In this document: piece after piece, positions 16,493-41,945 of the stretch
Position numbering within the stretch: position 1 is the stretch's first letter
How the letters are laid out: each line of letters begins with the position of its first letter
From: a candidate division FCPU426 bacterium
Lineage (GTDB): Bacteria; Oederibacteriota; Muellerivitia; Muellerivitales; Muellerivitaceae
NCBI GenBank assembly: GCA_963847625.1
Contig: CAWKAR010000027.1
Location: 1 to 64,000, forward strand
Direction: 5' to 3'
Length of the DNA: 64,000 bases
The notes under the pieces: generated by a model
What the model saw: only the letters and a program-made list of their open reading frames with translations
Database searches by the model: none
What the model was told of the DNA's origin: nothing
Made by a program: the position numbers and the translations under genes

Positions 16493-16604
16493 AAGGCACC
16501 AGGATAAATAACAATTATGTTATGGGCCACCCTCTATTCGAGGCCATCCATGAATCGCTTTTTTCTTGTGACCAATCAACTTTATCCAGTATTCTTAAAA
16601 AATC

Positions 16605-18862: not shown

Positions 18863-21037
18863 ATGAAGCGAAGAAAAAAATCAAACGGCACTTGGGACGG
18901 GAAATCCTGGAGCCGTTTTAAAAATATCGTATTTATTGATTTTATTCTGGATTTGGTTAATGAAGAAATAAAAAATAAAAATGGAATCCGATGGATTTTC
19001 CTTTTCGCCGGAATCCTGTTCTCCTGCGTTGGAATTGGATTCCTTTCGGGGGATGCCCCGAATTGGCTGTTTGGATTGCCTTTCCAAGCCATTGCATTTT
19101 GGGCGCTTTGGAACGCGTTTCCGATCCAGCCAAGAACCCTCCCGCAAACGGCCCCAAAAACAACCCCCCTTCGAAAAAACGAAGCAAAATGGCTTTGGCT
19201 GATTTTGGCGGTCATGGCGTCTTGGATATTTGCTTATTACTGTTTTTCGCGGGTGTGGTGGATGGCGGGTGCAGTTACAAGCATAGTCCTCCTCGGTGCG
19301 CTTATTCTTTTCGCGGGCCGTTGGAGAAACCCTCCGCCCGCCCGGAAGTTGTTTTCCGATAATACGGCCCTGGTTCTATTGATGATCCTGACAATTCTTC
19401 TCCGTTTTCCCTTTCTCAATCATTTCTTCGCGGGTTTGCAGGACGATGAGGCCCACAACTTCATGAACACGCTTGATGTTCTCAAGGGAATCATTAAAAC
19501 CCCATTTGGCTCCAACTGGGCATTGGCTTATTTCCCCCGTTTTTTACTAGCGCCCTTCGCATATGTTTTCGGGACTAACTTGGCCGTCATGAAGGGAGCG
19601 ACAGCCTTGATTTCCGCCGTCCCAGTCTATTTTTTTTACCGGTGGTGCCGGCTTTATTTCGGGGTCGGGGCCTCGCTGCTGGCCTCCAGTTTTTTCTCCT
19701 TTTGTTGGTGGGATCTTTTCTTCAGCCTTTCACTGTTCCAGCATATTTTCACGGTTTGCTTTGAAGTTTTGGCCTTTTATTTCCTGGCCAAGGGGATCCA
19801 AAAAGGGGGGAAGTGGAATTTTGCCTTTTCTGGAATATGCCTGGCAACGTCGGTTCTGACTTATTATTCAGGGCGGTTGGTTCCCATCATGGCGGTCATC
19901 GTGATCATCGCTTATTGGTTGATGGAAAGAAACGGATTTCCTAAGTTCTTGGGACGGAATCTTTCATTTTTAACGGTTTTCTTTTTATGGATGATCGGGC
20001 CATACCTCGTTTTTATTTTCCATAAACCGGATGAATTATACGGGCGTGCCGTCCAGATAAATACTTTGCAGCTCGTGGCGCAAAATCAAGCCTATCTCAT
20101 GCCCTTGGAAAGGATCCTGACCGGTTTTTACACTTTTCTTTTCCCCAACAATCCGGCGGTGGATTTGCGTTTCGGCCTCACTTCCGTCCCGTGCCTGGAT
20201 CCTTTTTTAGGTTTGTTCTTCCTGCTTGGCGTGGTTTTGGCCGTTTATTCCCTGCGCCAATGGCGGAATTTACTGGCCTTGACGGGCATCCTCATCGGGC
20301 TCGCGGCCAATGCGATCACCAGCGATTCAACAGACATTGGACCGTTTGGTTTCCATGCCGGGCGGTGTTTTTTTATTTTCCCTTTTTTATGTTTCCTGAT
20401 GGCCCAAGGATTGGATTGGGGGATCAGGCTTGTTTCAAGTTTGCCGAAAAAGCTGAAGATTTCTTGCAATCTGGCATTGGTTTTGTTGGCGGTTGGTTCC
20501 GCTTACACGAATATCGACACCTATTTTTTCAAATTCAGGAATAGTCCCTCCAATTTTTTTCCCTTGGCTTTCAACCACCTTTCTGTTGTGGAATTGTTCG
20601 AAAGTTATGTCTCGAAGGATCATGTCGTGGTGGAGGGGATCAACAACAATGGCAGTTATTCCAGCGGAGCATTCGATCAAATCGAACGAGTCCTGACCAT
20701 GCATAACGCTCCGGTCAACTTTGAGGGTTTCACTTATGGTTGTTATGACCTCCTCGGGAGAGACCCGGCTGCGCATGGCATACCGGTTAACCTGGGATGG
20801 CCTTTGCCGCTGCCGATCCGGGCCCAGGTCTCCAAGGGCGTGGTCATCTTTTTCCCCTTTTGGGAAGAGAAGTTTTTCGAGCCGGAAAAGGAAAAAGTCT
20901 TGCAGTTTTACCCCAACGCGGTATGGGAAACGCATAAGAACAAAAATGGGGAAGCCCTCGTCATGACGGCTGAAATAAAGATGGAGGATATCCAAAACCT
21001 CCAAAAAGGCATGAAGCTGGACCCGCCCCTTTATTGA
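18863..21037 (+). CDS. ArnT/PMT-like GT-C glycosyltransferase (type B, copy B2)
   Basis: 724 aa, colinear tandem paralog of B1; GLQDDEA. Confidence 0.8.
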   Translation: MKRRKKSNGTWDGKSWSRFKNIVFIDFILDLVNEEIKNKNGIRWIFLFAGILFSCVGIGFLSGDAPNWLFGLPFQAIAFWALWNAFPIQPRTLPQTAPKTTPLRKNEAKWLWLILAVMASWIFAYYCFSRVWWMAGAVTSIVLLGALILFAGRWRNPPPARKLFSDNTALVLLMILTILLRFPFLNHFFAGLQDDEAHNFMNTLDVLKGIIKTPFGSNWALAYFPRFLLAPFAYVFGTNLAVMKGATALISAVPVYFFYRWCRLYFGVGASLLASSFFSFCWWDLFFSLSLFQHIFTVCFEVLAFYFLAKGIQKGGKWNFAFSGICLATSVLTYYSGRLVPIMAVIVIIAYWLMERNGFPKFLGRNLSFLTVFFLWMIGPYLVFIFHKPDELYGRAVQINTLQLVAQNQAYLMPLERILTGFYTFLFPNNPAVDLRFGLTSVPCLDPFLGLFFLLGVVLAVYSLRQWRNLLALTGILIGLAANAITSDSTDIGPFGFHAGRCFFIFPFLCFLMAQGLDWGIRLVSSLPKKLKISCNLALVLLAVGSAYTNIDTYFFKFRNSPSNFFPLAFNHLSVVELFESYVSKDHVVVEGINNNGSYSSGAFDQIERVLTMHNAPVNFEGFTYGCYDLLGRDPAAHGIPVNLGWPLPLPIRAQVSKGVVIFFPFWEEKFFEPEKEKVLQFYPNAVWETHKNKNGEALVMTAEIKMEDIQNLQKGMKLDPPLY

Positions 21038-21121: not shown

Positions 21122-23296
21122 ATGAAACGAAGAAAAAAATCAAACGGCCTATTGGGTGGGATATCCCTAACCCGGTTTAAAGACATCGTATTTGTAGGCT
21201 TTATCCTGGAATGGATTAATCAAGAAATAGGAAATAAAAAAGGAATCCGCTGGGTTCTCCTGGGTTCCGGAATCCTGCTCTCTTGCGTTGGAATTGGATT
21301 TCTTTCGGGGGATGCCCCGAATTGGCTGTTTGGATTGCCTTTCCAAGCCATTGCATTTTGGGCGCTTTGGAACGCGTTTCCGATCCAGCCAAGAACCCTC
21401 CCGCAAACGGCTCCCCAAATAACTCCCCTTCGAAAAAACGAAACCAAATGGCTTTGGCTGGTTTTGGCGGTCATTGCGTCTTGGGTATTTGCTTACTACT
21501 GCTTTTCACGGGTGTGGTGGATGGCGGGTACAGTTACGAGTGTAGCCCTTCTCGGGACGGTTATTCTTTGCGCGGGCCGTTGGAGAAACCCTCCGCCCGC
21601 CCGGAAGTTATTTTCCGATAATACGGCCCTGGTTCTATTGATGATCCTGACAGTTCTTCTCCGTTTTCCCTTTCTCAACCATTTCTTCGCGGGTTTGCAA
21701 AACGATGAGGCCTATAACTTTTTAGGCGCGTTCAATATTCTCAACGGAAACGTGAAAACTCCATTTGAAAACTCCGGTAATTACGCTTATTTGCCCACGA
21801 TTTTTATGGCGTTTTTCGTATACCTATTCGGGGCCAAGTTGGCCGTCGCGAAGGGTGTCTCGGCCTTGATCTCCGTCATTCCCATTTATTTTTTTTACCG
21901 GTGGTGCCGGCTTTATTTCGGGGTGGGGGCCTCGCTGCTGGCCTCCAGCTTTTTTTCCTTTTGCTGGTGGGATCTTTTTTTCAGTTTTTCAATTCACCAG
22001 AATATTTTCACAGCTTGTTTTGAAGTCGCGGCTTTTTATTTCCTGTCAAAAGCGGTCCGGGATGGGGAAAAATGGAATTTTGCCTGGTCGGGAATATTCA
22101 TGGCCATGTCCATCCTGACATATTACACGGGGCGGTTGGTTCCCATCATGGCGGTCATCGTGATCATTTTTTATTGGTGGCTGGGAAAAAGCAGATTTCC
22201 AAAATTCTTTGGGTGGAAAATCTCGTTTTTATCGGTTTTCTTTTTATGGATGATTGGTCCATACCTCGTTTTTATCTACCATAAACCGGAAGAATTATAC
22301 GGGCGCGCCGCCGAATTGTATGACATGCCGATCGTGATGCAGAAACAAGCCTATCTCATGCCCTTGGAAAGGATCCTGACCGGTTTTTATACCTTCCTTT
22401 TTCCCAACAACCCGAGAGTGGATTTGGGATTCGGGCTCAGTTCCGTTCCGTGCCTGGATCCTTTTTTGGGGTTGTTCTTCCTGTTTGGCGTGGTTTTGGC
22501 CGTTTATTCCCTGCGCCAATGGAGGAATTTACTGGCCTTGACGGGCATCCTCATCGGGCTTGCGGCCAATGCGATCGCCAGCGGTTCAACCGAGACGGGG
22601 CCTTTTGGTTTTCATTCCGGGCGGTGTTTTTTTATTTTTCCATTTTTATGTTTCCTGATGGCCCAAGGATTGGATTGGGGGATCAGGCTTGTTTCAAGTT
22701 TGCCGAAAAAGCTGAAGATTTCCTGCAATATGGCATTGGTTTTATTGGCGGTATGCTCCGCTTACACGAATATCAATACCTACTTTTTTAAATTCAAGGA
22801 TAGTTCCGCTAATTATTTTACTCTCGGTTTTGGGCACATTGCGGTCGTGGATTTGTTTAAAAGTTATATTTCGAAGGATCATGTCGTGGCGGAGGGGATC
22901 AACAACAATGGCAGTTTCTCCAGCGGCGCTTTTGACCTCATCGACCGGGTCCTGACCATGCATAACGTACCGGTAAAATTTGACGGTCCCACCTATGGTT
23001 GTTATGACCTCCTGGGGAGCGACCCGGCCGCACATGGCATACCGGTCAACCTGGGATGGCCATTGCCATTGCCGATCCGGGCCCAGGTCTCCAAAGGCGT
23101 GGTTATCTTTTTCCCCTTTTGGGAAGAGAAGTTATTCGAGCCGGAAAAGGGAAAAGTCCGGCAGTTTTACCCAAACGCGGTATGGGAAACGCATAAGAAC
23201 CAAAGCGGGGAAGCCCTCGTCATGACGGCTGAAATAAAGATGGAGGATATCCAAAACCTTCAAAAAGGCATGAAGCTGGACCCGCCCCTTTATTGA
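21122..23296 (+). CDS. ArnT/PMT-like GT-C glycosyltransferase (type B, copy B3; B1/B2 mosaic)
   Basis: 724 aa tandem paralog; GLQNDEA. Confidence 0.8.
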   Translation: MKRRKKSNGLLGGISLTRFKDIVFVGFILEWINQEIGNKKGIRWVLLGSGILLSCVGIGFLSGDAPNWLFGLPFQAIAFWALWNAFPIQPRTLPQTAPQITPLRKNETKWLWLVLAVIASWVFAYYCFSRVWWMAGTVTSVALLGTVILCAGRWRNPPPARKLFSDNTALVLLMILTVLLRFPFLNHFFAGLQNDEAYNFLGAFNILNGNVKTPFENSGNYAYLPTIFMAFFVYLFGAKLAVAKGVSALISVIPIYFFYRWCRLYFGVGASLLASSFFSFCWWDLFFSFSIHQNIFTACFEVAAFYFLSKAVRDGEKWNFAWSGIFMAMSILTYYTGRLVPIMAVIVIIFYWWLGKSRFPKFFGWKISFLSVFFLWMIGPYLVFIYHKPEELYGRAAELYDMPIVMQKQAYLMPLERILTGFYTFLFPNNPRVDLGFGLSSVPCLDPFLGLFFLFGVVLAVYSLRQWRNLLALTGILIGLAANAIASGSTETGPFGFHSGRCFFIFPFLCFLMAQGLDWGIRLVSSLPKKLKISCNMALVLLAVCSAYTNINTYFFKFKDSSANYFTLGFGHIAVVDLFKSYISKDHVVAEGINNNGSFSSGAFDLIDRVLTMHNVPVKFDGPTYGCYDLLGSDPAAHGIPVNLGWPLPLPIRAQVSKGVVIFFPFWEEKLFEPEKGKVRQFYPNAVWETHKNQSGEALVMTAEIKMEDIQNLQKGMKLDPPLY

Positions 23297-23338: not shown

Positions 23339-23585
23339 TTACTTTGAACTATTCCCCGGGACGGGAATAGGTTTTTGGCTGAAGGTTTGGAAATACTTGA
23401 GGCACTGGTCCTGCCACTGCCGGGCGTCCCGGACCTGCTGGCGCAGTTTGCGGGATACGGTTTTGAATCTCTCCCCATCCACCCTGCCTTGAAGCTTTTT
23501 CCTAAAGGACTCAAAACTCTCCGCCTTTTTCACCACCCTTTGGTAACACCCGCATAGCGCCCCCAAAGGGTATTTTCCGGCTTCA
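23339..23585 (-). pseudogene. Orphan 3' end of alpha-glucuronidase aguA (fragment 1, divergent allele)
   Basis: Reads LCGCYQRVVKK...LQGRVDGERFKTVSRKLRQQVRDARQWQDQCLKYFQTFSQKPIPVPGNSSK*, homologous to the C-terminus of the gene ending at 32408. Confidence 0.9.
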
Positions 23586-23724
23586 AGAGCCCCGCTTCCG
23601 GAAAAGAGCCGATTTTTCAATGGTTTTTACAGGGTTTTTCAATGAAAGATTATTCATTTTTTTTGCAATAAATCCCGGGTTAGCCGTCTAGAGGTTAGAA
23701 AACCGGAAAACATGATGGGAGACG

Positions 23725-23906
23725 CCTGAAAATACGCCTTATTTGAAGAAAGTCCAAAGTATAATGCTCGGAAGTTTTATCTGAACGCAGTATGGAAAGA
23801 TCAACAAAAACAATTTGAGGAAGCACTCGTCATGACGGCTGGAATCAAGCGGGAGGAAATCCAGAGCCTCCCAAAAGCCGTGAAGCCGGATTCGCCCCTT
23901 TATAAA
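23725..23906 (+). pseudogene. Relic 3' end of a type B GT-C gene (copy 1)
   Basis: RKFYLNAVWKDQ...ALVMTAGIKREEIQSLPKAVKPDSPLY aligns with B C-terminus RQFYPNAVWETH...ALVMTAEIKMEDIQNLQKGMKLDPPLY. Confidence 0.8.
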
Positions 23907-23933
23907 GTCTCGAATTAAGGAATTTTTATTGCT

Positions 23934-26585
23934 ATGCCGACCAAGAGAGTATCTAAAAAATCTTCTTCCTCCCACCCGAAAAGGCGGAAAAGCCATCCGG
24001 CTCCAACCCCGTTAACTCCGGCCGTGGAATCCCCGGTACCGCCGGTTCCTCAGCAGCCTTCCCTGCCTGTTTGGACCAAAACCTTCGCCATCATCGCCTT
24101 GTGTTTGGGGCTGGGCTTTGCGTTGGGACACCACACCGATACCGCGATGCTTTTCATCAGCATGGCTATTTTTATTTTTCTTTCCAGGAACGCGAGTTTC
24201 CGGACCTCCGTCTACCCCCTGGCCCTGATCGGACTGGGTTGGGCCTTATTTACCGTTTCTGCCGGGCAAGACTGCGGTTTCGTCTACGCTTTCCCAAAGT
24301 TGCCAAGCTTTCTGTGTGCCTATCCGGCGTTTTATTTCGCGGTGGGGATGGGGTTGATGGTGGCGTTTTGGCGGTTTTTGCCTCCATTCCGGGCGGAAGA
24401 CGATGTCCCCAAGGTTTGGGCCAGGATTATATTCTGGGTGATCTTGGGCATGGCCGCTTTCATAAGGATGCAACGCATCAACGAGACCACGGGTTCCTAT
24501 TGGGATGAAACTGTCAACTGCATCACCCAGCCCTGGGGCATTTTTGAATTTCATGACCGCTACCTGATCGCGTCATGGGGGAGCCGGGAACCGTTCTACA
24601 ACTATTTCCTCGCGGTGTTATGCGCGCTCTTTCAGAACGCCCATTTGATTTTCATCCAGCGGCTCGGATGCGCGCTCATTGATTTGTTGGGGATTTGGTT
24701 TCTCTACCTGCTGGGGAAGGAAATCGGAGGCCGGTGGACGGGGCTCGTGGCGGCAGGCCTGGCCTCCGTCAACAAGCCCATGGTTGTCGAAGCCATCCTG
24801 GGATATCCGATGGTGACCCTTTCCATGGCGGTGTCCCTGATTCTTCTCATGACGGTGCGATTATTCAAGAAACCCGACTGGAGGCATTTCCTCCAATGGG
24901 GCCTGGTTCTGGGTTTCATGCCCTACAATTACACGGCAACGCGGCCCTGGCTGCCCTATATCGCGGGGTTGGTTTTGTGCTGGATCTGGTTTTATAAACA
25001 GAAAGAGGGAAAAGGGAAGTTGGATTTCCTGCTGGGCTGGGGGACGCTGGGGGCAGGGATTTTCGTGTTCCTGCAGTGGAACCATTTCCTGCCGGTGACG
25101 AACCCCCTGGTGGTTTTCCTGGCCCATAGATGGGTGGGATTGGCCGTGGTGGCGATCCTCTGGTTTTTATTCATCAGTTCCCGGCTGGAGGCGGTCAAGA
25201 ACAACGGCGCAAGCCTCCTGCCGCGGTATTTTCTCGGGGTCTTCCTGGCCGCCGCGCTGGCCTATCCCCTGTCTTTCGACCCGTACCTGAATGCGCATAT
25301 CGCGAATCTTTCCATTTTCAATAACCAGACCCAATCGACGGCCAACCACGCGCTTGAAGCCGCCTTGATATTTTTCAACAAGGTTTGGATCAGCCTTCAA
25401 ACCATCTTCTCGGGAAGGTTGGGCAATGGGGGGGAGACATACTTGTTCAACGGCGCTTTTTTCGATTTTCATTTCATCCCGGTATTCATCCTGGGGCTGG
25501 TCTCCCTCCTGGTACAGCCGAACTGGATGAAAGGGTTCCTGTTGCTTTGCTTTTTCCTGGGGATCTTGCCCCACGTGCTGACGAGGGATCCCAATATGGG
25601 AAAGCTCATGGGTATCTTGGCGCCCCTGTCGGTTTTGGCGGGGTTGGGCGTCCGCCAGGCTTATTCGGCCTTCCGGTCCATTCGAGGCGGCCATTCCGGA
25701 ATCTTGTTTGTTCTGCTTCTCACGGCTTATTTCGGGTGGGCATTCAGCGGAACCTACCATGAAGTTTGGAAAAAATATTTCGATATACAAAGCAGGGAGG
25801 TGACGATTTCCCTGCAAGTGGCGAAATACACCCCCCAAGACCGCGTCTATGTCTCCCTTTTATCCTCATACATTTCAGCGAAGGTGCAAGCAGTCCTGGA
25901 CCAGGGCCTGGAATACTACTCCTTGGGGGACCAGAATCCCATTCCGGTGAAAACCGGGGATATTCCGAAGGACGTGGTGGTGATCATGTCCGTCCTCAAT
26001 GCGAAAACCAAGGACCTGATCGACAGCCAGTTCAGAAACGTTTCCTGGGAGGACCTTTCCGAGAAAGGTTTTCCTGGTTTACGGCAGGAACGCCGCGCGA
26101 TTATCCCGGCCGCGGAAATACCCAAGGAACCAGGCAAGCTTTTCTATTTCCAGAGGGTTCCCGATACCAATTGGACGAGGGACTATTTCATAGGGCGTGT
26201 GGTCCTGGGTGACGGCATGATCGAAAGGGAGGAAAGCGTCCCAAGCCCCTACGATCCGGTGCCGCCCGAGATGGGCGGAAGGGTGGTACGCTTGAAGGGC
26301 AGTTTCAACCTGCCGGCGGACGCCCAGGTCACTTTCGGGGCCAAAACCGACAACCACGTGAAACTGCAAGTGGACGGCAAGCTGGTCCTCTACCTGAGAC
26401 CTTACCAGGAGTTCCTATCCGGGAATAAAAAGGTGGACCTGAAGGCGGGCAACCACGCGGTCGTATACGACACCTATCTCCAGGGTCCAAGGGAGATCCC
26501 AAAAATATTTATGTGGGTGGATGGAAGGCAGGTCGTACTAATGGGCGATCCGGCGCAAAATCCAGTCGCTCCGGAAGGACATTGA
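23934..26585 (+). CDS. ArnT/PMT-like GT-C glycosyltransferase with PA14-like domain (type A, copy A2)
   Basis: 883 aa; YWDE loop; paralog of A1. Confidence 0.8.
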   Translation: MPTKRVSKKSSSSHPKRRKSHPAPTPLTPAVESPVPPVPQQPSLPVWTKTFAIIALCLGLGFALGHHTDTAMLFISMAIFIFLSRNASFRTSVYPLALIGLGWALFTVSAGQDCGFVYAFPKLPSFLCAYPAFYFAVGMGLMVAFWRFLPPFRAEDDVPKVWARIIFWVILGMAAFIRMQRINETTGSYWDETVNCITQPWGIFEFHDRYLIASWGSREPFYNYFLAVLCALFQNAHLIFIQRLGCALIDLLGIWFLYLLGKEIGGRWTGLVAAGLASVNKPMVVEAILGYPMVTLSMAVSLILLMTVRLFKKPDWRHFLQWGLVLGFMPYNYTATRPWLPYIAGLVLCWIWFYKQKEGKGKLDFLLGWGTLGAGIFVFLQWNHFLPVTNPLVVFLAHRWVGLAVVAILWFLFISSRLEAVKNNGASLLPRYFLGVFLAAALAYPLSFDPYLNAHIANLSIFNNQTQSTANHALEAALIFFNKVWISLQTIFSGRLGNGGETYLFNGAFFDFHFIPVFILGLVSLLVQPNWMKGFLLLCFFLGILPHVLTRDPNMGKLMGILAPLSVLAGLGVRQAYSAFRSIRGGHSGILFVLLLTAYFGWAFSGTYHEVWKKYFDIQSREVTISLQVAKYTPQDRVYVSLLSSYISAKVQAVLDQGLEYYSLGDQNPIPVKTGDIPKDVVVIMSVLNAKTKDLIDSQFRNVSWEDLSEKGFPGLRQERRAIIPAAEIPKEPGKLFYFQRVPDTNWTRDYFIGRVVLGDGMIEREESVPSPYDPVPPEMGGRVVRLKGSFNLPADAQVTFGAKTDNHVKLQVDGKLVLYLRPYQEFLSGNKKVDLKAGNHAVVYDTYLQGPREIPKIFMWVDGRQVVLMGDPAQNPVAPEGH

Positions 26586-26592
26586 AGCGCCG

Positions 26593-26646
26593 TTATTGAC
26601 CGGGATTAGGCTTTTGACTGAAGGTTTGGAAATACTTGAGGCACTG
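26593..26646 (-). pseudogene. Orphan 3' end of aguA (fragment 2, 54 bp)
   Basis: ttattgaccggga..agg.ttttgactgaaggtttggaaatacttgaggcactg near-identical to 32408-32461. Confidence 0.9.
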
Positions 26647-26649
26647 CCA

Positions 26650-26830
26650 CCTGAAAAAACGTCTTATTTGAAGGAAGTCCAAAGTATAATGCTCGGAAGT
26701 TTTATCTGAACGCAGTATGGAAAGATCAAAAGAACCAATTTGGGAAAGCACTCGTCAGAACGGCTGGAATCAAGCGGGAGGAAACCCAGAGTCTCCCAAA
26801 AGCCGTGAAGCCGGATCCGCCCTTTATTAA
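26650..26830 (+). pseudogene. Relic 3' end of a type B GT-C gene (copy 2)
   Basis: Closely similar to 23725-23906; ends ...KPDPPLY* (TAA 26828-26830). Confidence 0.8.
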
Positions 26831-26883
26831 AGCCTCGAATTAAGGAATTTAAATATTTTTAAATATTAAGGAGGTTTTTTGCC

Positions 26884-29535
26884 ATGCCGGCCAAGCGAGT
26901 ATCTAAAAAATCTTCTTCTTCCCACCCGAAAAGGCGGAAAAGCCATCCGGCTCCAACCCCGTTAACTCCGGCCGTGGAATCCCCGGTACCGCCGGTTCCT
27001 CAGCAGCCTCCCCTGCCTGTTTGGACCAAAACCTTCGCCATCATCGCCTTGTGTTTGGGGTTGTATTTTGGGTGGGGACCCCACACCGATACCGCGATGC
27101 TTTTCATCAGCATGGCTTTTTTTATTTTTCTTTCCAGAAGAATGACTTTTTCAACCCCGGTCTACCCATTGGCCCTGATCGGACTGGGCTGGGCCTTATT
27201 TACCGTTACAGCCGGGCAAGACTGCGGTTTCGTCTACGCTTTCCCAAAGTTGCCGAACTTTCTGTGCGCCCATCCGGCGTTTTATTTCGCGGCGGGGATG
27301 GGGTTGATGGTGGCGTTTTGGCGGTTTTTGCCTCCATTCCGGGCGGAAGACGAGGTCCCCAAGGTTTGGGCCAGGATTATATTCTGGGTGATTCTGGGGG
27401 TGGCCGCTTTCATGAGGATGCACCGCATCAACGAGACTACAGGTTCCTATTGGGATGAAACTGTCTCCTGCATCACTCAGCCCCGGGGTATTTTTGAATT
27501 TCATGACCGCTACCTGATCGCGCCAAGCGGGGGGCGGGAACCGTTCTTCACCTATTTCCTCGCGGTGTTATGCGCGCTCATGCAGAACACCCATTTGATT
27601 TTCATCCATCGGTTCGGATGCGCGCTCATTGATTTGTTGGGGATTTGGTTTCTCTACCTGCTGGGGAAGGAAATCGGAGGCCGGTGGACGGGGCTCGTGG
27701 CGGCGGGCCTGGCCTCCATCACCAAGCCCATGGTTGTCGAAACCCTCCTGGGATATCCGATGGTGACCCTTTCCATGGCGGTATCCCTGATTCTTCTCAT
27801 GACGGTGCGATTATTCAAGAAACCCGACTGGAGGCATTTCCTCCAATGGGGCCTGGTTCTGGGTTTCATGCCCTACAATTACACGGCGGTCAGGCCCTGG
27901 CTCCCATACATAGCGGCGGTGGTGTTGTGCTGGATCTGGTTTCATAAGCAGAAAGAGGGGAAGGGGAAGGGGGATTTCCTGCTGGGCTGGGGGACGCTGG
28001 GGGCAGGGGTTTTTGTGTTCCTGAAATGGAACCATTTCCTGCCGATGACGAACCCCCTGGTGGTTTTTCTGGCCCATAGATGGGTGGGATTGGCCGTGGT
28101 GGCGATCCTCTGGCTTATATTCATCAGCTCCCGGCTGAAGGCGGTCCAGCACAACGGCACAAGCCTCCTGCCGCGGTATTTTCTCGGGGTCTTCCTGGCC
28201 GCCGGGTTGTGTTATCCCCTGGCTTTCGACCCGTATCTGTATGCTCATATCACGGATCTTTCCATTTTCAATAACCTGTCTCATTCGAACGCCAACTGCG
28301 TCCTGGAAGCCGGCCGGGTCTTTTTCAATAAGGTTTGGATCAGCTTTCAAACCGTCTTCTCGGGAAGGATGGGCGATTGTGGGGAGACATACTTGTTCAA
28401 CGGCGCTTTCTTCGATTTTCATTTCATCCCGGTATTCATCCTGGGGCTGGTCTCCCTCCTGGTACAGCCGAACTGGATGAAAGGGTTCCTGTTGCTTTGC
28501 TTTTTCGTGGCGATCTCGCCCCACGTGCTGACGAGAGATCCCAATATGGGCAAGCTCATGGGTGTCGTGGCACCCCTCTCGGTTTTGGCGGGGTTGGGCG
28601 TCCGCCAGGCCTATTCGGCCTTCCGGTCCATCCGGGGCGGCCATTCCGGAATCTTGTTTGTCCTGCTTCTTACGGCTTATTTCGGATGGGCATTCAGCGG
28701 AACCTACCATGAAGTTTGGACAAAATATTTCGATTTACAAAACATGGAGGTGACGACTTCCCTGCTGGTGGCGAAATACACCCCCCAAGACCGCGTCTAT
28801 GTCGCCCTTTATCCCTCTTTCATTTCGGCGAATACACAAGCAGTCCTGAACCAGGGCCTGGAATACTACTCCTTGGGGGACCAGAATCCCATTCCGGTGA
28901 AAACCGGGGATATTCCGAAGGACGTGATGGTGATTATGTCCGTCTACGACGCGAAAACCAAGGGCCTGATCGACAGCCAGTTCAAGAACGTTTCCTGGGA
29001 GGACATTCCCGTGAAAAATTATTCGGTTTTACGGTTGGAACGCCGCGCGATTATCCCGGCTGCGGAGATACCCAAGGAACCAGGCAAGCTTTTCTATTTC
29101 CAGAGGGTTCCCGATACCAATTGGACGAGGGACTATTTCATAGGGCGTGAAATCCTGGGTGACGGCATGATCGGAAGAGAGGAAAGCGTCCCAAGCCCCT
29201 ACGACCCGGTGCCGCCCGAGATGGGTGGAAGGATCGTGCATTTGAAAGGCAGTTTCAACCTGCCGGCGGACGCCCAGGTCACTTTCGGGATCAAAACCGA
29301 CAAGCTCGTGAAACTGCAAGTGGACGGCAAGCGGGTTTTCTACCTGAAACCCTACCAGGAGTTCCTTTCCGGGAAGAAAAAGGTGGACCTGAAGGCGGGC
29401 AACCACGCGGTCGTTTACGACACCTATCTCCCGGGTCCAAGGGAGATCCCGGAAATATTAATGTGGGTGGATGGAAGGCCGGCCGGACTGATGGGCGATC
29501 CGGCGCAAAATCCAATCGCCCCGGCAGGACATTGA
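26884..29535 (+). CDS. ArnT/PMT-like GT-C glycosyltransferase with PA14-like domain (type A, copy A3)
   Basis: 883 aa; SD AAGGAGG; YWDE; close paralog of A2. Confidence 0.8.
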   Translation: MPAKRVSKKSSSSHPKRRKSHPAPTPLTPAVESPVPPVPQQPPLPVWTKTFAIIALCLGLYFGWGPHTDTAMLFISMAFFIFLSRRMTFSTPVYPLALIGLGWALFTVTAGQDCGFVYAFPKLPNFLCAHPAFYFAAGMGLMVAFWRFLPPFRAEDEVPKVWARIIFWVILGVAAFMRMHRINETTGSYWDETVSCITQPRGIFEFHDRYLIAPSGGREPFFTYFLAVLCALMQNTHLIFIHRFGCALIDLLGIWFLYLLGKEIGGRWTGLVAAGLASITKPMVVETLLGYPMVTLSMAVSLILLMTVRLFKKPDWRHFLQWGLVLGFMPYNYTAVRPWLPYIAAVVLCWIWFHKQKEGKGKGDFLLGWGTLGAGVFVFLKWNHFLPMTNPLVVFLAHRWVGLAVVAILWLIFISSRLKAVQHNGTSLLPRYFLGVFLAAGLCYPLAFDPYLYAHITDLSIFNNLSHSNANCVLEAGRVFFNKVWISFQTVFSGRMGDCGETYLFNGAFFDFHFIPVFILGLVSLLVQPNWMKGFLLLCFFVAISPHVLTRDPNMGKLMGVVAPLSVLAGLGVRQAYSAFRSIRGGHSGILFVLLLTAYFGWAFSGTYHEVWTKYFDLQNMEVTTSLLVAKYTPQDRVYVALYPSFISANTQAVLNQGLEYYSLGDQNPIPVKTGDIPKDVMVIMSVYDAKTKGLIDSQFKNVSWEDIPVKNYSVLRLERRAIIPAAEIPKEPGKLFYFQRVPDTNWTRDYFIGREILGDGMIGREESVPSPYDPVPPEMGGRIVHLKGSFNLPADAQVTFGIKTDKLVKLQVDGKRVFYLKPYQEFLSGKKKVDLKAGNHAVVYDTYLPGPREIPEILMWVDGRPAGLMGDPAQNPIAPAGH

Positions 29536-29542
29536 AGCGCTG

Positions 29543-29684
29543 TTATTGACCGGGAATAGGCTTTTGACTGAAGGTTTGGAAATACTTGAGGCACTGGTTC
29601 CGCCACTGTCGGGCGTCCCGGACCTGCTGGCGCAGTTTGCCGGACACGATTTGGAACCTTTCCCCATCCACCCTGCCCTGGAGC
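29543..29684 (-). pseudogene. Orphan 3' end of aguA (fragment 3, ~140 bp)
   Basis: Encodes LQGRVDGERFQIVSGKLRQQVRDARQWRNQCLKYFQTFSQKPIPGQ*, near-identical to the intact gene end. Confidence 0.92.
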
Positions 29685-29745
29685 CTGCTCCGGGCGGTTT
29701 CGAGGCTCTTAGCCTTTCAGGCCCCTCTAAGGAATTTTTATTGCT

Positions 29746-32391
29746 ATGCCGACCAAGAGAGTATCTAAAAAATCTTCTTCCCACCCGAAAAGGCGGAAAA
29801 GCCATCCGGCTCAAATCCAGTTAACCCCGGCCGTGGAATCCCCGGTACCTCCGGTTCCTCAGCAGCCTTCCCTGCCTGTTTGGACCAAAACCTTCGCCAT
29901 CATCGCCTTGTGTTTGGGGCTGGGTTTTGCGTTGGGACACCACGCCGATACCGCGATGCTTTTCATCAGCATGGCTATATTTATTTTTCTTTCCAGGAAC
30001 GCGAGTTTCCGGACCCCCTTCTACCCCCTGGCCCTGATCGGACTGGGTTGGGCCTTATTTACCGTTTCTGCCGGGCAAGACCGCGGCTTCGTCTACTCTT
30101 TCCCAAAGTTGCCGAACTTTCTGTATGCCCATCCGGCGTTTTATTTCGCGGTAGGGATGGGGTTGATGGTGGCGTTTTGGCGGTTTTTGCCGCCATTCCG
30201 GGCGGAAGACGATGCGCCCAAGGTTTGGGCCAGGATTTGCTTCTGGGTGATTCTGGGGGTGGCCGCTTTCATGAGGATGCACCGCATCAACGACGCCATC
30301 GGTTCCTATTGGTATGAAACTGTCTCCTGCATCACCCAGCCCTGGGGTATTTTTGAATTTCATGACCGCTACCTGATCGCGTCACATGGGAGCCGGGAAC
30401 CGTTCTTCAACTATTTCATCGCGGTGTTATGCGCGCTCATGCAGAATACCCATTTAATTTTCATCCATCGGCTCGGATGCGCGCTCATTGATTTGTTGGG
30501 GATTTGGCTTCTCTACCTGCTGGGGAAGGAGATCGGAGGCCGGTGGACGGGGCTCGTGGCGGCAGGCCTGGCCTCCGTCACCAAGCCCATGGTTGTCGAA
30601 ACCCTCCTGGGATATCCGATGGTGACCCTTTCCATGGCGGTGTCCCTGATTCTTCTCATGACGGTGCGATTGTTCAAGAAACCCGACTTGAGGCATTTCC
30701 TCCAATGGGGCCTGGTTCTGGGTTTCATGCCCTACAATTACACGGCGGTCAGGCCCTGGCTCCCATACATAGCGGCGGTGGTGTTGTGCTGGATCTGGTT
30801 TCATAAGCAGAAAGGGGGAAAGGGGAAGTGGGATTTCCTGCTGGGCTGGGGGACGCTGGGGGCAGGGGTTTTCGTGTTCCTGCAGTGGAACCATTTCCTG
30901 CCGATGGAGAACGGCTTCATTTCTTTCTTAAACCACGGATGGGCGGGATTGGCCGTGGTGGCGATCCTTTGGCTTATATTCATCAGATCCTGGCTGAAGG
31001 CGGTCCAGCACAACGGCACAAGCCTCCTGCGGCGGTATTTTCTCGGGGTTTTCCTGGCCGCCGCGCTGGCCTATCCCCTGGCTTCCAGCCCGGAACTGAC
31101 GGGGCATATCACGGAACTTTCCATTTTCAAGGGCCTGTCTCATTCGAACGCCAACTGCATCCTGGAAGCCGGCCGGATCTTTTTCAACAAGGTTTGGATC
31201 AGCCTTCAAACCGTCTTCTCGGGAAGGATGGGAGGCGAGGGGGATGCGTACCTGTTCAACGGCGCTTTCTTCGATTTTCATTTCATCCCAGTATTCATCC
31301 TGGGGCTGGTCTCCCTCCTGGTACAGCCGAACTGGATGAAAGGGTTCCTGTTGCTTTGCTTTTTCGTGGGGATCTCGCCCCATGTCCTATCTACTGATTA
31401 CAACATGGGCAAGCTCATGGGTATCGTGGCGCCCCTCTCGGTTTTGGCGGGGTTGGGCGTCCGCCAGGCCTATTCGGCCTTCCGGTCCATCCGGGGCGGC
31501 CATTCCGGAATCTTGTTTGTCCTGCTTCTCACGGCTTATTTCGGATGGGCATTCAGCGGAACCTACCATGAAGTTTGGAAAAAATATTTCGATATGCAAA
31601 ATCTGGAGGTCACAACCTCCCTGCAGGTGGCGAAATACGCCCCCCAAGACCGCGTCTATATCGCCTCTTTTTCCTATTTCGTGACGGGGAAAACACAAGC
31701 AGTCCTGGACCAGGGCCTGGACTACTACTTCTTGGGGGACCAGAATCCCATTCCGGTGAAAACCGGGGATATTCCGAGGGACGTGATGGTGTTCATGCCC
31801 GTCTACGACGCGAAAACCAAGGACCTGATCGACAGCCAGTTCGGAAACGTTTCCTGGGAGGACATTCCCCAGAAAGGTTTTCCTGGTTTACGGCAGGAAC
31901 GCCGCGCGATTATCCCGGCCGCGGAGATACCCAAGGAACCAGGCAAGCTTTTTTATTTCCAGCGGGTTCCCGATACCAATTGGACGAGGGACTATTTCAT
32001 GGGGCGTGAAATCCTGGGTGACGGCATGATCGAAAGGGAGGAAAGCGTCCCAAGCCCCTACGACCCGGTGCCTCCCGAGATGGGCGCAAGGGTGGTGCGC
32101 TTGAAGGGCAGTTTCAACCTGCCGGCGGACGCCCAGGTCACTTTCGGGGCCAATACCACCAACCACGTGAAGCTGCAAGTGGACGGCAAGGAGATCCTGT
32201 ACCTGAGGCCCTACCAATACCTGAAGTTCCTATCCGGGGAGAAAAAGGTGGACCTGAAGGCAGGAAACCATTCGGTCGTTTATGACACTTATCTGAAAGG
32301 CCCAATGGAAATCCCGAAAATATTAATGTGGGTGGATGGAAGGCCGGCCGGGCTGATGGGCGCTCCGGCGCAAAATCCAATCGCCCCGTAA
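29746..32391 (+). CDS. ArnT/PMT-like GT-C glycosyltransferase with PA14-like domain (type A, copy A4; YWYE variant)
   Basis: 881 aa close paralog of A2/A3; early TAA removes the last 3 residues (ccg TAA ggg cat tga). Confidence 0.8.
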   Translation: MPTKRVSKKSSSHPKRRKSHPAQIQLTPAVESPVPPVPQQPSLPVWTKTFAIIALCLGLGFALGHHADTAMLFISMAIFIFLSRNASFRTPFYPLALIGLGWALFTVSAGQDRGFVYSFPKLPNFLYAHPAFYFAVGMGLMVAFWRFLPPFRAEDDAPKVWARICFWVILGVAAFMRMHRINDAIGSYWYETVSCITQPWGIFEFHDRYLIASHGSREPFFNYFIAVLCALMQNTHLIFIHRLGCALIDLLGIWLLYLLGKEIGGRWTGLVAAGLASVTKPMVVETLLGYPMVTLSMAVSLILLMTVRLFKKPDLRHFLQWGLVLGFMPYNYTAVRPWLPYIAAVVLCWIWFHKQKGGKGKWDFLLGWGTLGAGVFVFLQWNHFLPMENGFISFLNHGWAGLAVVAILWLIFIRSWLKAVQHNGTSLLRRYFLGVFLAAALAYPLASSPELTGHITELSIFKGLSHSNANCILEAGRIFFNKVWISLQTVFSGRMGGEGDAYLFNGAFFDFHFIPVFILGLVSLLVQPNWMKGFLLLCFFVGISPHVLSTDYNMGKLMGIVAPLSVLAGLGVRQAYSAFRSIRGGHSGILFVLLLTAYFGWAFSGTYHEVWKKYFDMQNLEVTTSLQVAKYAPQDRVYIASFSYFVTGKTQAVLDQGLDYYFLGDQNPIPVKTGDIPRDVMVFMPVYDAKTKDLIDSQFGNVSWEDIPQKGFPGLRQERRAIIPAAEIPKEPGKLFYFQRVPDTNWTRDYFMGREILGDGMIEREESVPSPYDPVPPEMGARVVRLKGSFNLPADAQVTFGANTTNHVKLQVDGKEILYLRPYQYLKFLSGEKKVDLKAGNHSVVYDTYLKGPMEIPKILMWVDGRPAGLMGAPAQNPIAP

Positions 32392-32407
32392 GGGCATTGA
32401 AGCGCCG

Positions 32408-34525
32408 TTATTGACCGGGAATAGGTTTTTGACTGAAGGTTTGGAAATACTTGAGGCACTGGTCCCGCCACTGCCGGGCGTCCCGGACCTGCTGGCGCAG
32501 TTTACCGGACACGGCTTGGAACCTTTCCCCATCCACCCTGCCCTGGAGCGCTTGCCAACCGTTTTCCAGGTTTTGAGTTTCCTCGACCCCCTTTTGGTAA
32601 CACCCGCACAACTCCTCCCAAAGCGTATTCCCCGATTTCATCCGGTGCCCCCAAGGCACGTGGTGGAACCAGAGAAGGTATTTCTCCGGGCAGGTTTTGA
32701 GGGAATTGAACTTCTCCGGCAAGGGGACGTGGTACTGGGCGACGGCGCCGCTTCCTTTAAGGGTGCGGTCGAAACCCAAACCCTTTTGGTCGGCGTGGAC
32801 GAAATAAGTGGAGGACCAATCCTCGTGCTGGGGATCGAAAGTCCAGGGCATGGGCGCGTAGTGGATATGGGGGTCGGTCATTCCGTTCAGGCCCAGGGGG
32901 GAGTCGTAGTCCACGAATGATTCCCGGGAAGCCATCATGATGGAAACGATTGGATCCACTGTTTGGGATCCATTTCCCCAAGTCAATCCCGCCCAGTCCC
33001 GGGCGATGGCCTCGGCGCTCAAACCCGGGTTCCAGGCCAGCCTTCCGAAGGCGTACCAGTTGGCCTGGGCGAAGGGGTGGCCGCACCAGTTCCGGTCATC
33101 GCCAGTATTGGCCACACCCGCGATAGCACTGTCTTTATGGTTGTTGAACTTGCCTTCTACGACTTTTTTAACCGTTGAGCCGGGGCCCTGAGCGTAAGTT
33201 TCCGCGTCCAGGAATTCCTTCCAGAGAGGGGCCAGGTAAACCAGGTGGGTGGATTGCCCCAGGTATTCCTGGGTGACTTGCAATTCTGCGGCCAGGGGAG
33301 TCTTGGGCATGGCGCCGAACAGGGGATGAAAGGGCTCGCGGGGCTGGAAATCCAAGGGACCGTATTTGACCTGGAGGAAAACATTGGGGAGAAATTTGCC
33401 GTCCAGCGGTGTGAACTCCTGGAAGGCGCGCTTGATCCGGTCATGGTCCACTTGGGGGGAATAGACGAAGGCCCTCCACATCACGACGCCCCCGTGGGGC
33501 GCCAGGGCTTTGGCCAGCAGGTTCGCCCCCTGCGCGTGGGTGCGGCTGTAATCGTTGGGCCCGGGCTGGCCCTCGCTGTTGGCCTTGACCAGGAAACCCC
33601 CGAAATCCGGAATCAATCCATAAATCTCACCGGCTTTTTTTGCCCACCACTTTTGCACCGAGGGATCGAGGGGATCGGCGGTGGGGAGGTCCCCCAACGC
33701 CTTAGGGGTTCCAAAGTTGGCCGAGAGATAGACCCGGATGCCGTAAGGACGCAAGGTATCTGCCAGTGCCGCGGTTTTCTTGAGATATTCGGCTTTTAGC
33801 ATCATGGGATTGGCGTTGACGTTGTTCAGGACCGCGCCGTTCAACCCGATGGAAGCGCAAGCCCGGGCGTAATCCCTCACGCGCGGGTTGACCTGGCCCG
33901 GCAAGTCGTTCCAACGCCAAAGGGATTTTCCCGCGTAGCCCCTTTCAATGGTCCCGTCCAGGTTGTCCCAGTGGTCCAACAACCGGCGCTTCAGGCGGGG
34001 TTTTTCAGCGATATCCAGTTTTTCAACGGGCTGGCCGGTGCCTATAAGCCGGAGAAGGTGGAAGGCGCCGTAGAGACAGCCCAAGGGGCTTTGGGAAGCG
34101 ACGAGGGTAAAGTGGCGGCCTTCCGCTTGGCAGGAACGGATCAGGTAACCTTCTTTTCCCAACTTCGGCAGACTTCGCGCCTCTTTCATGCGGGCAACCA
34201 AAGGGGAAGATTCGGGGGTGCCGACCAATAAGGAACCGTCCTGGATTTTCTTTAGGAAAGGGATATTTTTTCCCAGGAAACCCTTGAGGCCCTGTTGCAG
34301 TTCTTCCTGAAGGATTTTTTCGGTAGACGTCGTTCCTTCCACCACGATGGAGGAAAACGCATGTCGGAAGGAATCCAGCAGCCTGGAATTTGCCACCTTG
34401 TCGTAACGAAGCCAAAGCCGGTAACCGTCTTCGGCATGAAGGCCGGAAGGAATTCCGATGAAACACCCTATAAGAATAGGGAGCCGCCAGCGTCTTCGAA
34501 TTGCGGCAACTTGAGTATTTTTGAT
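32408..34525 (-). CDS. aguA: Alpha-glucuronidase, glycoside hydrolase family 67 (secreted); probable ATC start at 34525 (ORF caller: GTG 34396)
   Basis: A|EDGYRLWLRY N-terminus, HWDNLDGTIERGYAG, NNVNA, VKANSEGQPGP, WRAFVY, KYGPLDFQPREP, QEYLGQ. Confidence 0.95.
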   Translation of the reverse strand: MKNTQVAAIRRRWRLPILIGCFIGIPSGLHAEDGYRLWLRYDKVANSRLLDSFRHAFSSIVVEGTTSTEKILQEELQQGLKGFLGKNIPFLKKIQDGSLLVGTPESSPLVARMKEARSLPKLGKEGYLIRSCQAEGRHFTLVASQSPLGCLYGAFHLLRLIGTGQPVEKLDIAEKPRLKRRLLDHWDNLDGTIERGYAGKSLWRWNDLPGQVNPRVRDYARACASIGLNGAVLNNVNANPMMLKAEYLKKTAALADTLRPYGIRVYLSANFGTPKALGDLPTADPLDPSVQKWWAKKAGEIYGLIPDFGGFLVKANSEGQPGPNDYSRTHAQGANLLAKALAPHGGVVMWRAFVYSPQVDHDRIKRAFQEFTPLDGKFLPNVFLQVKYGPLDFQPREPFHPLFGAMPKTPLAAELQVTQEYLGQSTHLVYLAPLWKEFLDAETYAQGPGSTVKKVVEGKFNNHKDSAIAGVANTGDDRNWCGHPFAQANWYAFGRLAWNPGLSAEAIARDWAGLTWGNGSQTVDPIVSIMMASRESFVDYDSPLGLNGMTDPHIHYAPMPWTFDPQHEDWSSTYFVHADQKGLGFDRTLKGSGAVAQYHVPLPEKFNSLKTCPEKYLLWFHHVPWGHRMKSGNTLWEELCGCYQKGVEETQNLENGWQALQGRVDGERFQAVSGKLRQQVRDARQWRDQCLKYFQTFSQKPIPGQ

Positions 34526-36896: not shown

Positions 36897-36909
36897 GACG
36901 ATGGCTGCC

Positions 36910-39182: not shown

Positions 39183-39296
39183 CTACTCCCCGAGAAACTG
39201 AAGGATAATCTGCCGCTTGCGGGAGCGGTTGTCGAAATCGATGAGCACGATTTGCTGCCAGGTCCCCAGCGCGGCCTGGCCTTCTTGGACGGGAAT
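39183..39296 (-). pseudogene. Orphan 3' end of yjbQ (divergent allele)
   Basis: Encodes IPVQEGQAALGTWQQIVLIDFDNRSRKRQIILQFLGE*, versus FPVLEGQAALGTWQQIVLIDFDNRSRKRQVILQFLGE* in the gene ending at 42004. Confidence 0.93.
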
Positions 39297-41055: not shown

Positions 41056-41075
41056 AACTATAGAAGGAGACGGTC

Positions 41076-41945
41076 ATGAAAAATAAATGGGTATTAATTA
41101 TTGTTGGATATTTTTTAATGAACATTGTGTCAGTAGTCCAAGGAGAAATACCGCAAGGTTATAAAGTGAAAAAAGATTTTTTCACAATATCTACGAATAC
41201 ACCTCCCGCATTATTGTATGTTGTTGATTCCCAAGGCCGCAGAACGGGCATCAATCCTTCTTATTTATCTAAGATCGATCAATATGGGATTTTAGAGGAC
41301 TTACATGGTTTGCTGAGTGAAATTCCTCTTTCAAATTCAGAGCAACAAAATAATGGTGATCCCAATAATAATTTTGCACCTAGTCCGACTACTCCTTGTC
41401 TGATTACGATTCTAGATGGTGGCAATCAAACATATACGATTAACTTGATTGGTATTACTCAAGGTGTTCAAGATATTGTTGTTCAGGATGCTCCCCTTAC
41501 CCCTTTGCCCAAAGCACCACAGAATGAATTTTTCGTATTAATTCAACCCAATGGTGTGAAACAAATAAACGTTGCTGTTAATACTGATGCCCATACAACG
41601 GCTATTACTAGGGTTGTTGGAAATAGCGATCTTTTAAGTGATGTGATGATTGCTTGCCAACAAAACCTGATCACTTCCAAACATGTTTGCAAATATTTAG
41701 AGAAAAAAGCTGAAGCCATCCAGGGCGCCTTGGAGGATAAAAATTACAAAAGAGCAGAGGAATTAATTTGGGATTTTCTCCATTTGCTGGGCGATTCCAG
41801 GCCTGCGGGATGCCATGATGACGACTATCACAATGTCATTGAAGAACCGGCTTTGACTATTCTCAAGGAAGACGCTAAGGCCCTCTCGGCGCAGTTAGAG
41901 GAAAATCAAAAGCATCCCCATCATAATCATGATGATGGGAGGTAA
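41076..41945 (+). CDS. Hypothetical secreted protein with FIMAH-like helical C-terminal domain
   Basis: SD AAGGAG; signal peptide; LYVVDSQGRRTG; C-terminal helices ending ILKEDAKAL; His-rich tail. Confidence 0.65.
   Translation: MKNKWVLIIVGYFLMNIVSVVQGEIPQGYKVKKDFFTISTNTPPALLYVVDSQGRRTGINPSYLSKIDQYGILEDLHGLLSEIPLSNSEQQNNGDPNNNFAPSPTTPCLITILDGGNQTYTINLIGITQGVQDIVVQDAPLTPLPKAPQNEFFVLIQPNGVKQINVAVNTDAHTTAITRVVGNSDLLSDVMIACQQNLITSKHVCKYLEKKAEAIQGALEDKNYKRAEELIWDFLHLLGDSRPAGCHDDDYHNVIEEPALTILKEDAKALSAQLEENQKHPHHNHDDGR

What the first reader, a model, noticed from the sequence alone, without database searches (positions are those of the whole stretch)
23339..32550. Cassette accretion marked by displaced 3' ends of a convergent anchor gene (aguA)
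Seen: the order is B3 - aguA tail 1 - B relic - A2 - aguA tail 2 - B relic - A3 - aguA tail 3 - A4 - intact aguA. Each tail carries the aguA stop codon but breaks off at a different point (~247, 54 and ~142 bp). Tail 1 stays in frame for ~70 codons yet has a different C-terminus (PIPVPGNSSK vs PIPGQ) and many substitutions. Inference: each new glycosyltransferase arrived on DNA carrying its own aguA end, with a homologous crossover in aguA and an illegitimate junction on the other side. That would strand the previous tail and give a polarised array with the newest unit next to aguA. It resembles homology-facilitated illegitimate recombination, here apparently iterated into an integron-like array, with no integrase in the window.
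Basis: partly seen in the sequence, partly recalled or inferred. Interest (0 to 1): 0.82.

Follow-up and report, generated by a model that had tools for sequence, protein, structure and literature searches.

The report
Gene capture behind stranded gene tails
Three leftover copies of the end of a sugar-enzyme gene separate membrane glycosyltransferase genes that a related species lacks at this spot; the first copy likely marks DNA captured from a relative by ordinary recombination, the other two likely come from later duplication in place, and the same scar sits behind about ten genes of this genome, a variant of a known kind of gene insertion that has no integrase beside it.

Summary
Observation confirmed; tail 3 is about 185 bp, not 142. 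A congener (G001) has icd and aguA adjacent, so the 18.6-kb glycosyltransferase array is an insertion. Tail 1 keeps the ancestral aguA end: it is the displaced old allele. Tails 2 and 3 look like copies of a whole unit: their repeats run on into the A gene, A2/A3 are sisters, A2-A4 are mosaics, tail 3 is probably a chimera. One capture plus in-place amplification fits better than three polarised captures; neutral decay of the aguA tails is not rejected. The larger result: 15 downstream, same-strand tails at 12 genes and none in other orientations; 9 more in 1.6 Mb of three relatives; 4 of 9 anchors checked are empty in G001. Seven non-aguA tails show purifying selection (omega 0.15-0.24, p<=5e-5) and most repeats end at the stop codon, so the second gene end likely came from a relative. 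No integrase on the contig, no shared junction motif. Closest known: insertion with long target duplication (PMC2853133); partial-anchor duplication by single crossover of a recircularised fragment (PMC3240628). The scan noted single cases on other genomes before. New variant of a known kind.

The parts
12550..13800 (+). icd, left flank; directly convergent with aguA in G001
   Evidence: Pfam Iso_dh; G001 synteny
13919..16492 (+). A1, GT-C (PMT_2) glycosyltransferase; groups with two paralogues on contig C30, not with A2-A4
16496..16557 (+). decayed internal icd fragment (matches 13507-13569); eroded copies lead B2 and B3; likely an older scar anchored on icd
   Evidence: 48/63 identical, 0 of 300 shuffles
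16605..18779 (+). B1, GT-C (PMT_2)
18863..21037 (+). B2, paralogue of B1/B3 (dS 0.36-0.51, omega 0.23-0.31)
21122..23296 (+). B3, GT-C (PMT_2)
23339..23586 (-). aguA tail 1, about 247 bp; keeps the ancestral C-terminal motif and a piece of the native downstream spacer; frameshift and Trp-to-Arg change; the displaced old allele
23587..23724 (+). spacer X with a promoter-like motif that recurs upstream of genes on several other contigs; function untested
23725..23903 (+). B relic 1: last ~55 codons of a B-type gene, 76% identical to B1-B3
23934..26585 (+). A2, GT-C (PMT_2), 883 aa
26593..26646 (-). aguA tail 2, 54 bp, derived stop; repeat continues into A2; joined to relic 2 over a 3-nt microhomology
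26650..26828 (+). B relic 2, 91.5% identical to relic 1
26884..29535 (+). A3, GT-C (PMT_2), 883 aa
29543..29727 (-). aguA tail 3, about 185 bp; proximal 132 bp resident-type, distal 45 bp nearer tail 1; internal TGA
29746..32391 (+). A4, GT-C (PMT_2), 881 aa; leader identical to A2's over 20 bp
32408..34396 (-). aguA, intact GH67 alpha-glucuronidase, the anchor; 83% aa identity and omega 0.13 to G001
39183..39295 (-). second site: stranded 113-bp tail of the yjbQ-like gene, 92% identical, 7 synonymous and 2 non-synonymous differences
39523..41945 (+). cargo of the second site: two convergent ORFs without a Pfam match; absent from the G001 site
42004..42447 (-). yjbQ-like (UPF0047) anchor gene; 11 bp from the GH5 stop in G001

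Best explanation
The array sits in a site that is empty in a related species and likely grew in two ways: one capture of a glycosyltransferase unit from a relative by the cell's own recombination in the end of aguA, which stranded the old gene end (tail 1), followed by likely in-place amplification of that unit between the repeats so made (tails 2 and 3). Step 1 (inferred): a fragment from a relative, holding promoter X, a B relic, an A gene and the last ~250 bp or more of its own aguA, most likely closed into a circle and entered by one RecA crossover in aguA; aguA stays whole with a new end, the old end is pushed to the far side of the cargo. Step 2 (inferred): unequal crossover between tail 1 and the new aguA end, now direct repeats, duplicated the unit; deletions then trimmed the inner tails to 54 and 185 bp and removed the inner copies of X; conversion kept A2-A4 and the proximal tails about 90-95% alike. 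Step 1 is a habit of the genome and its relatives, seen behind about ten genes here with unrelated cargo.
For: Shown: empty site in G001. Tail 1 keeps the G001-like C-terminal motif and a 12-of-13 match to the G001 spacer behind the stop (read from the printed sequences); the outermost tails of ubiX and nth also keep the G001-like end. Polarity: 16 same-strand downstream tails at 13 genes, 2 upstream, 0 inverted among 2660 genes; with stricter filters 15 at 12 genes and 0 others among 2683 (one of the 12 is the B relic and one an integrase gene, leaving 10). Relatives: 2 in 0.8 Mb of G001 (plus 1 inverted), 4 in 0.4 Mb of G002, 3 in 0.4 Mb of G029. Empty G001 site at 4 of 9 anchors examined: aguA, yjbQ, nth, TMEM260-like. 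Seven non-aguA tails, 218 codons: omega on the tail branch 0.15-0.24, neutrality rejected at p 5e-5 to 2e-7, p<=0.0023 when each of three loci is dropped or only five close-outgroup loci are kept. All 24 tails pooled: 137 synonymous, 111 non-synonymous differences, pairwise omega 0.28, below the 0.5 floor of an in-place copy, p 6e-6. 20 of 24 repeats end no more than 20 bp past the stop, 13 within 4 bp, as expected if only coding sequence was shared; the two that run 100 bp or more are aguA tails 2 and 3. Tail 3: derived states shared with the resident 5:0 proximally and with tail 1 4:1 distally, p 0.048. A2-A4 mosaic: 193 of 376 neighbouring sites in the same state, shuffle maximum 163 in 10,000. 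No tyrosine recombinase on contig C27 among 18 matches in the genome. From the literature: 56 of 60 clones from a one-sided homology substrate were partial anchor duplications, 109-950 bp in 14 sequenced, by single crossover of a circle (PMC3240628); cassettes between long direct repeats amplify (PMC2853133 discussion).
Against: For the aguA tails themselves neutrality is not rejected (omega 0.56-1.79, p 0.035-0.78; proximal parts p 0.74-0.92), so the foreign origin of the resident end at this locus is carried over from other loci. No donor was found: the pattern search of metagenome contigs gave 0, aguA relatives there are at most 59% identical, A2 has no relative in genome contigs and 32% at best in five relatives. 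Tail 1 and tail 3 differ at 20 of 45 distal sites, more than a recent chimera should; the chimera test is borderline and was chosen after seeing the data. Circle versus linear one-sided uptake cannot be told apart here. ComEC and DprA are present but also ring over the cut-off in 10 of 14 control genomes. 5 of 9 anchors gave no empty site: GH27 has other neighbours in G001, ubiX was unresolved in a 1.5-kb flank, G001 shares the recQ-PIN block at 93% elsewhere, two anchors lack a clear orthologue. The outgroup is distant (dS 0.7-0.8).
Confidence: 0.55

Rival explanations
1. Three successive captures from relatives, each bringing its own aguA end, newest next to aguA.
For: Three break points; the distal patch of tail 3 differs from the resident at 22 of 45 sites, too much for a copy made when A3 and A4 split (dS 0.16); nth has two tails around unrelated cargo and a G002 pseudouridine-synthase gene has two, so iteration by capture does occur.
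Against: Tails 2 and 3 share the derived stop and junction and their repeats continue into A; A2+A3 are sisters; B relic 2 is a 91.5% copy of relic 1; no age gradient between tails 2 and 3 (96% and 95% to the resident); aguA tails fit neutral decay.
Confidence: 0.2
2. Everything happened in place: an A gene moved in from elsewhere with a true duplication of the target, or plain tandem duplications with deletions; all tails are neutral copies.
For: Neutrality not rejected for aguA; recR has a short cargo-free tandem copy of its end; cargo often belongs to families with many paralogues in this genome.
Against: Purifying signal in seven other tails and in relatives (24:8 and 23:6); repeats end at stop codons; A2-A4 have no close source in the genome (62-63% aa); the B relic is only 76% like B1-B3.
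Confidence: 0.15
3. A site-specific recombinase or a long-repeat transposase acting in trans made the insertions, as e14 does at icd.
For: 18 tyrosine-recombinase matches elsewhere in the genome; one scan hit (C52) is an integrase-bounded island; icd flanks the array and an icd fragment lies inside it.
Against: At least ten unrelated anchors, three break points at aguA and two at nth, no shared motif or terminal repeat among 19 junction pairs apart from the aguA copies and one 17-bp match; IS1634 and integron integrase below their cut-offs.
Confidence: 0.05
4. The array is a strain chimera made by the assembler.
For: Genome in 63 contigs; no long reads; B3|tail 1 not bridged; the runs laid may be the source samples.
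Against: Copies differ by about 10% and every junction is unique; independent contigs match three junctions with 0-1 differences; tails carry old decay (stop, frameshift); the same pattern stands in three other genomes.
Confidence: 0.05

Closest known systems
[quoted passage not shown]
   Same: Insert under 20 kb between direct repeats over 30 bp, empty site in another genome, no mobile element, repeats often span a start or stop so the target gene survives; later amplification between the repeats.
   Different: Described for restriction-modification genes and ascribed to their DNA breaks; repeats in its Table 2 are 44/46 to 49/49 alike. Here cargo is glycosyltransferases, outer-membrane and beta-propeller proteins and toxin-antitoxin pairs, repeats are 78-98% alike with a purifying signature (a second allele, not a copy of the target), and the event is iterated at one anchor.
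Single crossover of a recircularised incoming fragment, and HFIR (PMC3240628; passages)
   Same: One-sided homology; product is a partial duplication of the anchor of variable size (109-950 bp there, 37-250 bp here).
   Different: Laboratory plasmid substrate in E. coli at about 4e-9; HFIR proper gives an insertion with a deletion of similar size, not seen as a net loss at the nth and TMEM260-like sites. Here only the end products are seen.
Sequential displacement in Vibrio cholerae T6SS effector-immunity arrays and Rhs C-terminal displacement (PMC5361080; passages)
   Same: Integrase-free arrays proposed to grow by one-sided homologous insertion that pushes older parts downstream.
   Different: There the anchor's own variable end is the payload and orphan immunity genes are kept; here the anchor is an ordinary gene that regains an equivalent end, the cargo is unrelated and mostly convergent.
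e14 prophage in E. coli icd with icdC (annotation; scan control)
   Same: A gene's 3' end is replaced by a diverged copy and the other copy is stranded (165 bp, 10 synonymous to 2 non-synonymous differences).
   Different: e14 carries its integrase and uses one fixed site; neither holds here.

Membership tests
Insertion with long target duplication (ILTD) | Empty site in a related genome | tested here: met
   aguA, yjbQ, nth, TMEM260-like in G001, 4 of 9 anchors examined; another species, not a conspecific
Insertion with long target duplication (ILTD) | Direct repeats over 30 bp, variable in length, insert under 20 kb | tested here: met
   37-250 bp repeats, 0.5-13 kb apart at the ten integrase-free anchors
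Insertion with long target duplication (ILTD) | No integrase or transposase in the insert | tested here: met
   Pfam on cargo of 10 sites; no tyrosine recombinase on C27; cargo of the C39 and C49 sites not scanned; a serine recombinase piece lies just beyond the ubiX tail
Insertion with long target duplication (ILTD) | Restriction-modification cargo and near-identical repeats, as in the cases described | tested here: not met
   No RM family among the cargo scanned; repeats 78-98% alike with purifying signal
Homology-facilitated illegitimate recombination | One homologous side and one non-homologous junction with 0-10 bp microhomology | tested here: met
   Homology in the anchor only; junctions share no motif; 3-nt overlap at tail 2
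Homology-facilitated illegitimate recombination | Insertion coupled with a deletion of recipient DNA of similar size | tested here: not met
   Net duplication; native downstream DNA intact at nth and TMEM260-like sites. A deletion hidden inside the replaced gene segment cannot be excluded
Homology-facilitated illegitimate recombination | RecA dependence, linear single-stranded donor in a competent cell | not testable with these tools
   ComEC and DprA present but common in controls
Integron | Integron integrase IntI | tested here: not met
   TIGR02249 below cut-off in G000 and G001
Integron | attC sites between cassettes | tested here: inconclusive
   No shared motif at junctions and no long inverted repeat at them; no attC covariance model was run
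Integrative element with 3'-end replacement (e14/icdC type) | Own integrase and one fixed crossover site | tested here: not met
   three break points at aguA
IS1634-type elements with long variable target duplications (family feature recalled, not read) | IS1634 transposase and terminal inverted repeats | tested here: not met
   NF033559 below cut-off; no terminal repeats

The most novel reading that the evidence does not exclude
In this phylum gene ends serve as general, integrase-free attachment sites: any gene lying behind a conserved gene's end in one species can pop out or be cut out with that end, enter a relative by a single RecA crossover, leave a stranded tail, and then amplify or move on using the repeat it made. 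With about 3 visible scars per Mb this would be a main route of accessory gene gain, and the tails would be a datable, countable record of it in single genomes.
Probability: 0.3. Interest if true: 0.75.

Novelty: new variant of a known kind. Interest (0 to 1): 0.5.

Why it matters
How bacteria add accessory genes where no mobile element is present is still poorly resolved. Here one genome shows about ten such insertions with a readable scar, and the scar can be tested: the stranded end evolved as a working allele and shares sequence only up to the stop codon, so the 'target duplication' is likely a second allele from a relative. The scan is simple and can be run on any genome set to count this route. 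At aguA it has built seven surface-modifying glycosyltransferases (function by family only, untested) into an array that looks integron-like but needs no dedicated enzyme.

Tried and rejected
Search for strains with other array contents: DNA pattern in metagenome contigs 0 hits; aguA protein gave 80 loci, best 59% identity, not used; A2 in genome contigs none; 13 relatives with aguA each have one match and no tail, and of the 11 relatives whose aguA flank was fetched only G001 is syntenic. Public runs X1-X4 hold 7-17% of the words, contigs only; two odd joints (25741-31619, 31066-21872) are single low-depth contigs with short sides and were not used; the joint is tail 3|A4 laid on tail 1. First genome-wide scan timed out; the second was too noisy and was replaced. 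Mirror-image 5' heads: 4 upstream against 3 downstream, no enrichment. E. coli control: 1 hit (icdC, integrase-made) in 0.78 of 4.64 Mb; about 2.3 would be expected at the relatives' rate, so 0 integrase-free cases is not significant and lineage specificity is not claimed; one of the two stretches was chosen to hold icd. Terminator-like hairpin at 23349-23370 inside tail 1: 2 found against 1.7 in shuffles, not used. A2 has no solved relative by sequence; no fold was predicted. Parsimony polarisation gave the same split as the likelihood test (non-aguA 25:23, aguA 12:29). recR, C59, C48, C39, C28 and two OMP tails were left out of the likelihood test (no cargo or no clear orthologue). [quoted passage not shown]
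Full report
The observation. The window is the first 64 kb of contig C27 of a 4.43-Mb, 63-contig genome. Between icd and a convergent GH67 gene, aguA, lie seven membrane glycosyltransferase genes of two types, A and B. Three pieces of the aguA end lie among them at 23339-~23586, 26593-26646 and 29543-~29727, and two relics of a B-type gene end precede A2 and A3. Contigs of public runs bridge three junctions with 0-1 differences; B3|tail 1 is uncovered and the runs may be the source samples.

The array is an insertion. Of 41 genomes searched, 14 have aguA and only this one has extra partial matches. In G001, the only congener held, icd and aguA face each other with no glycosyltransferase between. 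G001's aguA ends in a motif that tail 1 keeps and the resident gene has lost, and tail 1 is followed by a short match to the G001 spacer. So tail 1 is the old end and the resident end is derived. The unit behind tail 1 looks imported from an equivalent locus: a promoter-like spacer, a B relic only 76% like B1-B3, and an A gene whose closest paralogues in the genome are 62-63% identical.

Tails 2 and 3 are different in kind. They carry the derived stop and the same A-aguA junction, and in the genome-wide scan they are the only repeats that run 100 bp or more past the stop. A2 and A3 group together (94/97), A2-A4 are mosaics (193 of 376 neighbouring sites alike, shuffle maximum 163) with dS 0.15-0.17 and omega about 0.5. 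Tail 3 shares derived states with the resident proximally (5:0) and with tail 1 distally (4:1; p 0.048), as an unequal crossover between tail 1 and the new aguA end would give; this test is borderline and post hoc, and the two distal patches still differ at 20 of 45 sites. One capture and later amplification is therefore the better reading; three captures stay possible.

The habit is genome-wide. Searching the last 300 nt of 2660 genes for orphan, single-copy matches within 30 kb gave 16 same-strand downstream tails at 13 genes, 2 upstream and none inverted; a stricter run gave 15 at 12 genes and nothing else, of which one is the B relic and one an integrase gene. Anchors include nth (two tails), recQ, ubiX, a GH27 gene, a TMEM260-like gene, a chemoreceptor and, in this window, a yjbQ-like gene; cargo includes outer-membrane barrels, beta-propeller proteins, an alpha-2-macroglobulin cluster and toxin-antitoxin pairs. 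G001 has an empty site at 4 of 9 anchors examined; the other five were uninformative or different. Samples of relatives show the same: 2 tails in 0.8 Mb of G001, 4 in 0.4 Mb of G002, 3 in 0.4 Mb of G029, against 1 (icdC of prophage e14) in 0.78 Mb of E. coli K-12. The E. coli sample is too small to show a difference.

The second gene end came from another lineage. A copy made in place would decay neutrally and give a pairwise omega of 0.5 or more. The 24 tails give 137 synonymous and 111 non-synonymous differences, omega 0.28 (p 6e-6). A three-sequence codon model with G001 as outgroup gives omega 0.15-0.24 on the tail branch of seven non-aguA tails (218 codons; p 5e-5 to 2e-7), stable to dropping loci. 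20 of 24 repeats end within 20 bp past the stop and 13 within 4 bp of it (the scan demands that a match come within 30 nt of the stop, but not that it end there). That is what sharing only coding sequence with a donor predicts. No recombinase signature was found: no tyrosine recombinase on C27, no integron integrase or IS1634 over cut-off, no shared junction motif.

Mechanism. Shown: empty site, ancestral tail 1, polarity, purifying signal outside aguA, repeat ends at stops, no local integrase. Inferred: uptake of a relative's DNA, RecA crossover in the anchor, amplification and trimming at aguA. Between a circle and a linear one-sided event I favour the circle, because HFIR is described as insertion with deletion while 56 of 60 clones from a one-sided substrate were partial anchor duplications by single crossover of a recircularised molecule (PMC3240628, passages); end products alone cannot settle it. 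No donor was found.

Comparison and novelty. Integrase-free iteration is known from V. cholerae T6SS arrays (PMC5361080, passages; also PMC11751169, passages). Earlier notes of this scan report single stranded tails at argS, lysS, a GNAT gene and actin in other genomes (not checked here) and a duplicated hpnD start in this genome (the 162-bp match was found again). What is added here is iteration at ordinary genes, a genome and phylum count, and evidence that the repeat is a second allele. Seven paper searches showed no such census in the open library.

Noticed in passing
window 16496-16557, with eroded copies at about 18794-18815 and 21050-21075: Internal icd fragment in the leader of B1, echoed before B2 and B3: likely an older scar anchored on icd, and a sign that B1-B3 arose by in-place tandem duplication.
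   Followed up: partly
window 13865-13918: A1's homology to A2 starts upstream of its first in-frame start codon; the ATG used by A2-A4 seems lost in A1.
   Followed up: no
window 23640-23700 and contigs C10, C22, C25, C27, C37, C45: Recurrent upstream motif (T-run, then a conserved block ending in GCCGTCTA) that looks like an ECF-sigma promoter (resemblance recalled, not tested).
   Followed up: partly
window 23349-23370: The distinctive end of tail 1 forms an 8-bp hairpin before a T-run on the + strand and could serve as terminator for B3; not above chance.
   Followed up: partly
window 43771-45229: leuC appears split by a frameshift into two overlapping ORFs (43771-44766 and 44600-45229).
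   Followed up: no
window 36438-37530: Two short paralogous ORFs (152 and 169 aa) in tandem, 69% alike over 347 bp; no family scan run.
   Followed up: no
window 52724-53034: Short intergenic repeats, 74-82% alike over 117-159 bp.
   Followed up: no
L122:3801-6579 (G000 C50) and L135:8611-11394 (G001 C4): A recQ plus PIN toxin-antitoxin block is 93% identical between the two species but lies in different places; G001's spacer behind recQ matches the sequence behind the G000 tail.
   Followed up: partly
L113, L121, L122; L207, L211 (G002): Toxin-antitoxin-type genes are frequent cargo between an anchor and its stranded tail.
   Followed up: partly
L143 (G000 C33:104409-107371): Mirror-image case: 162-bp copy of the start of a squalene synthase gene 1.9 kb upstream, 96.9% identical.
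   Followed up: partly
L128 (G000 C30:25511-32585): Two more A-type paralogues, one frameshifted, sister to A1.
   Followed up: partly
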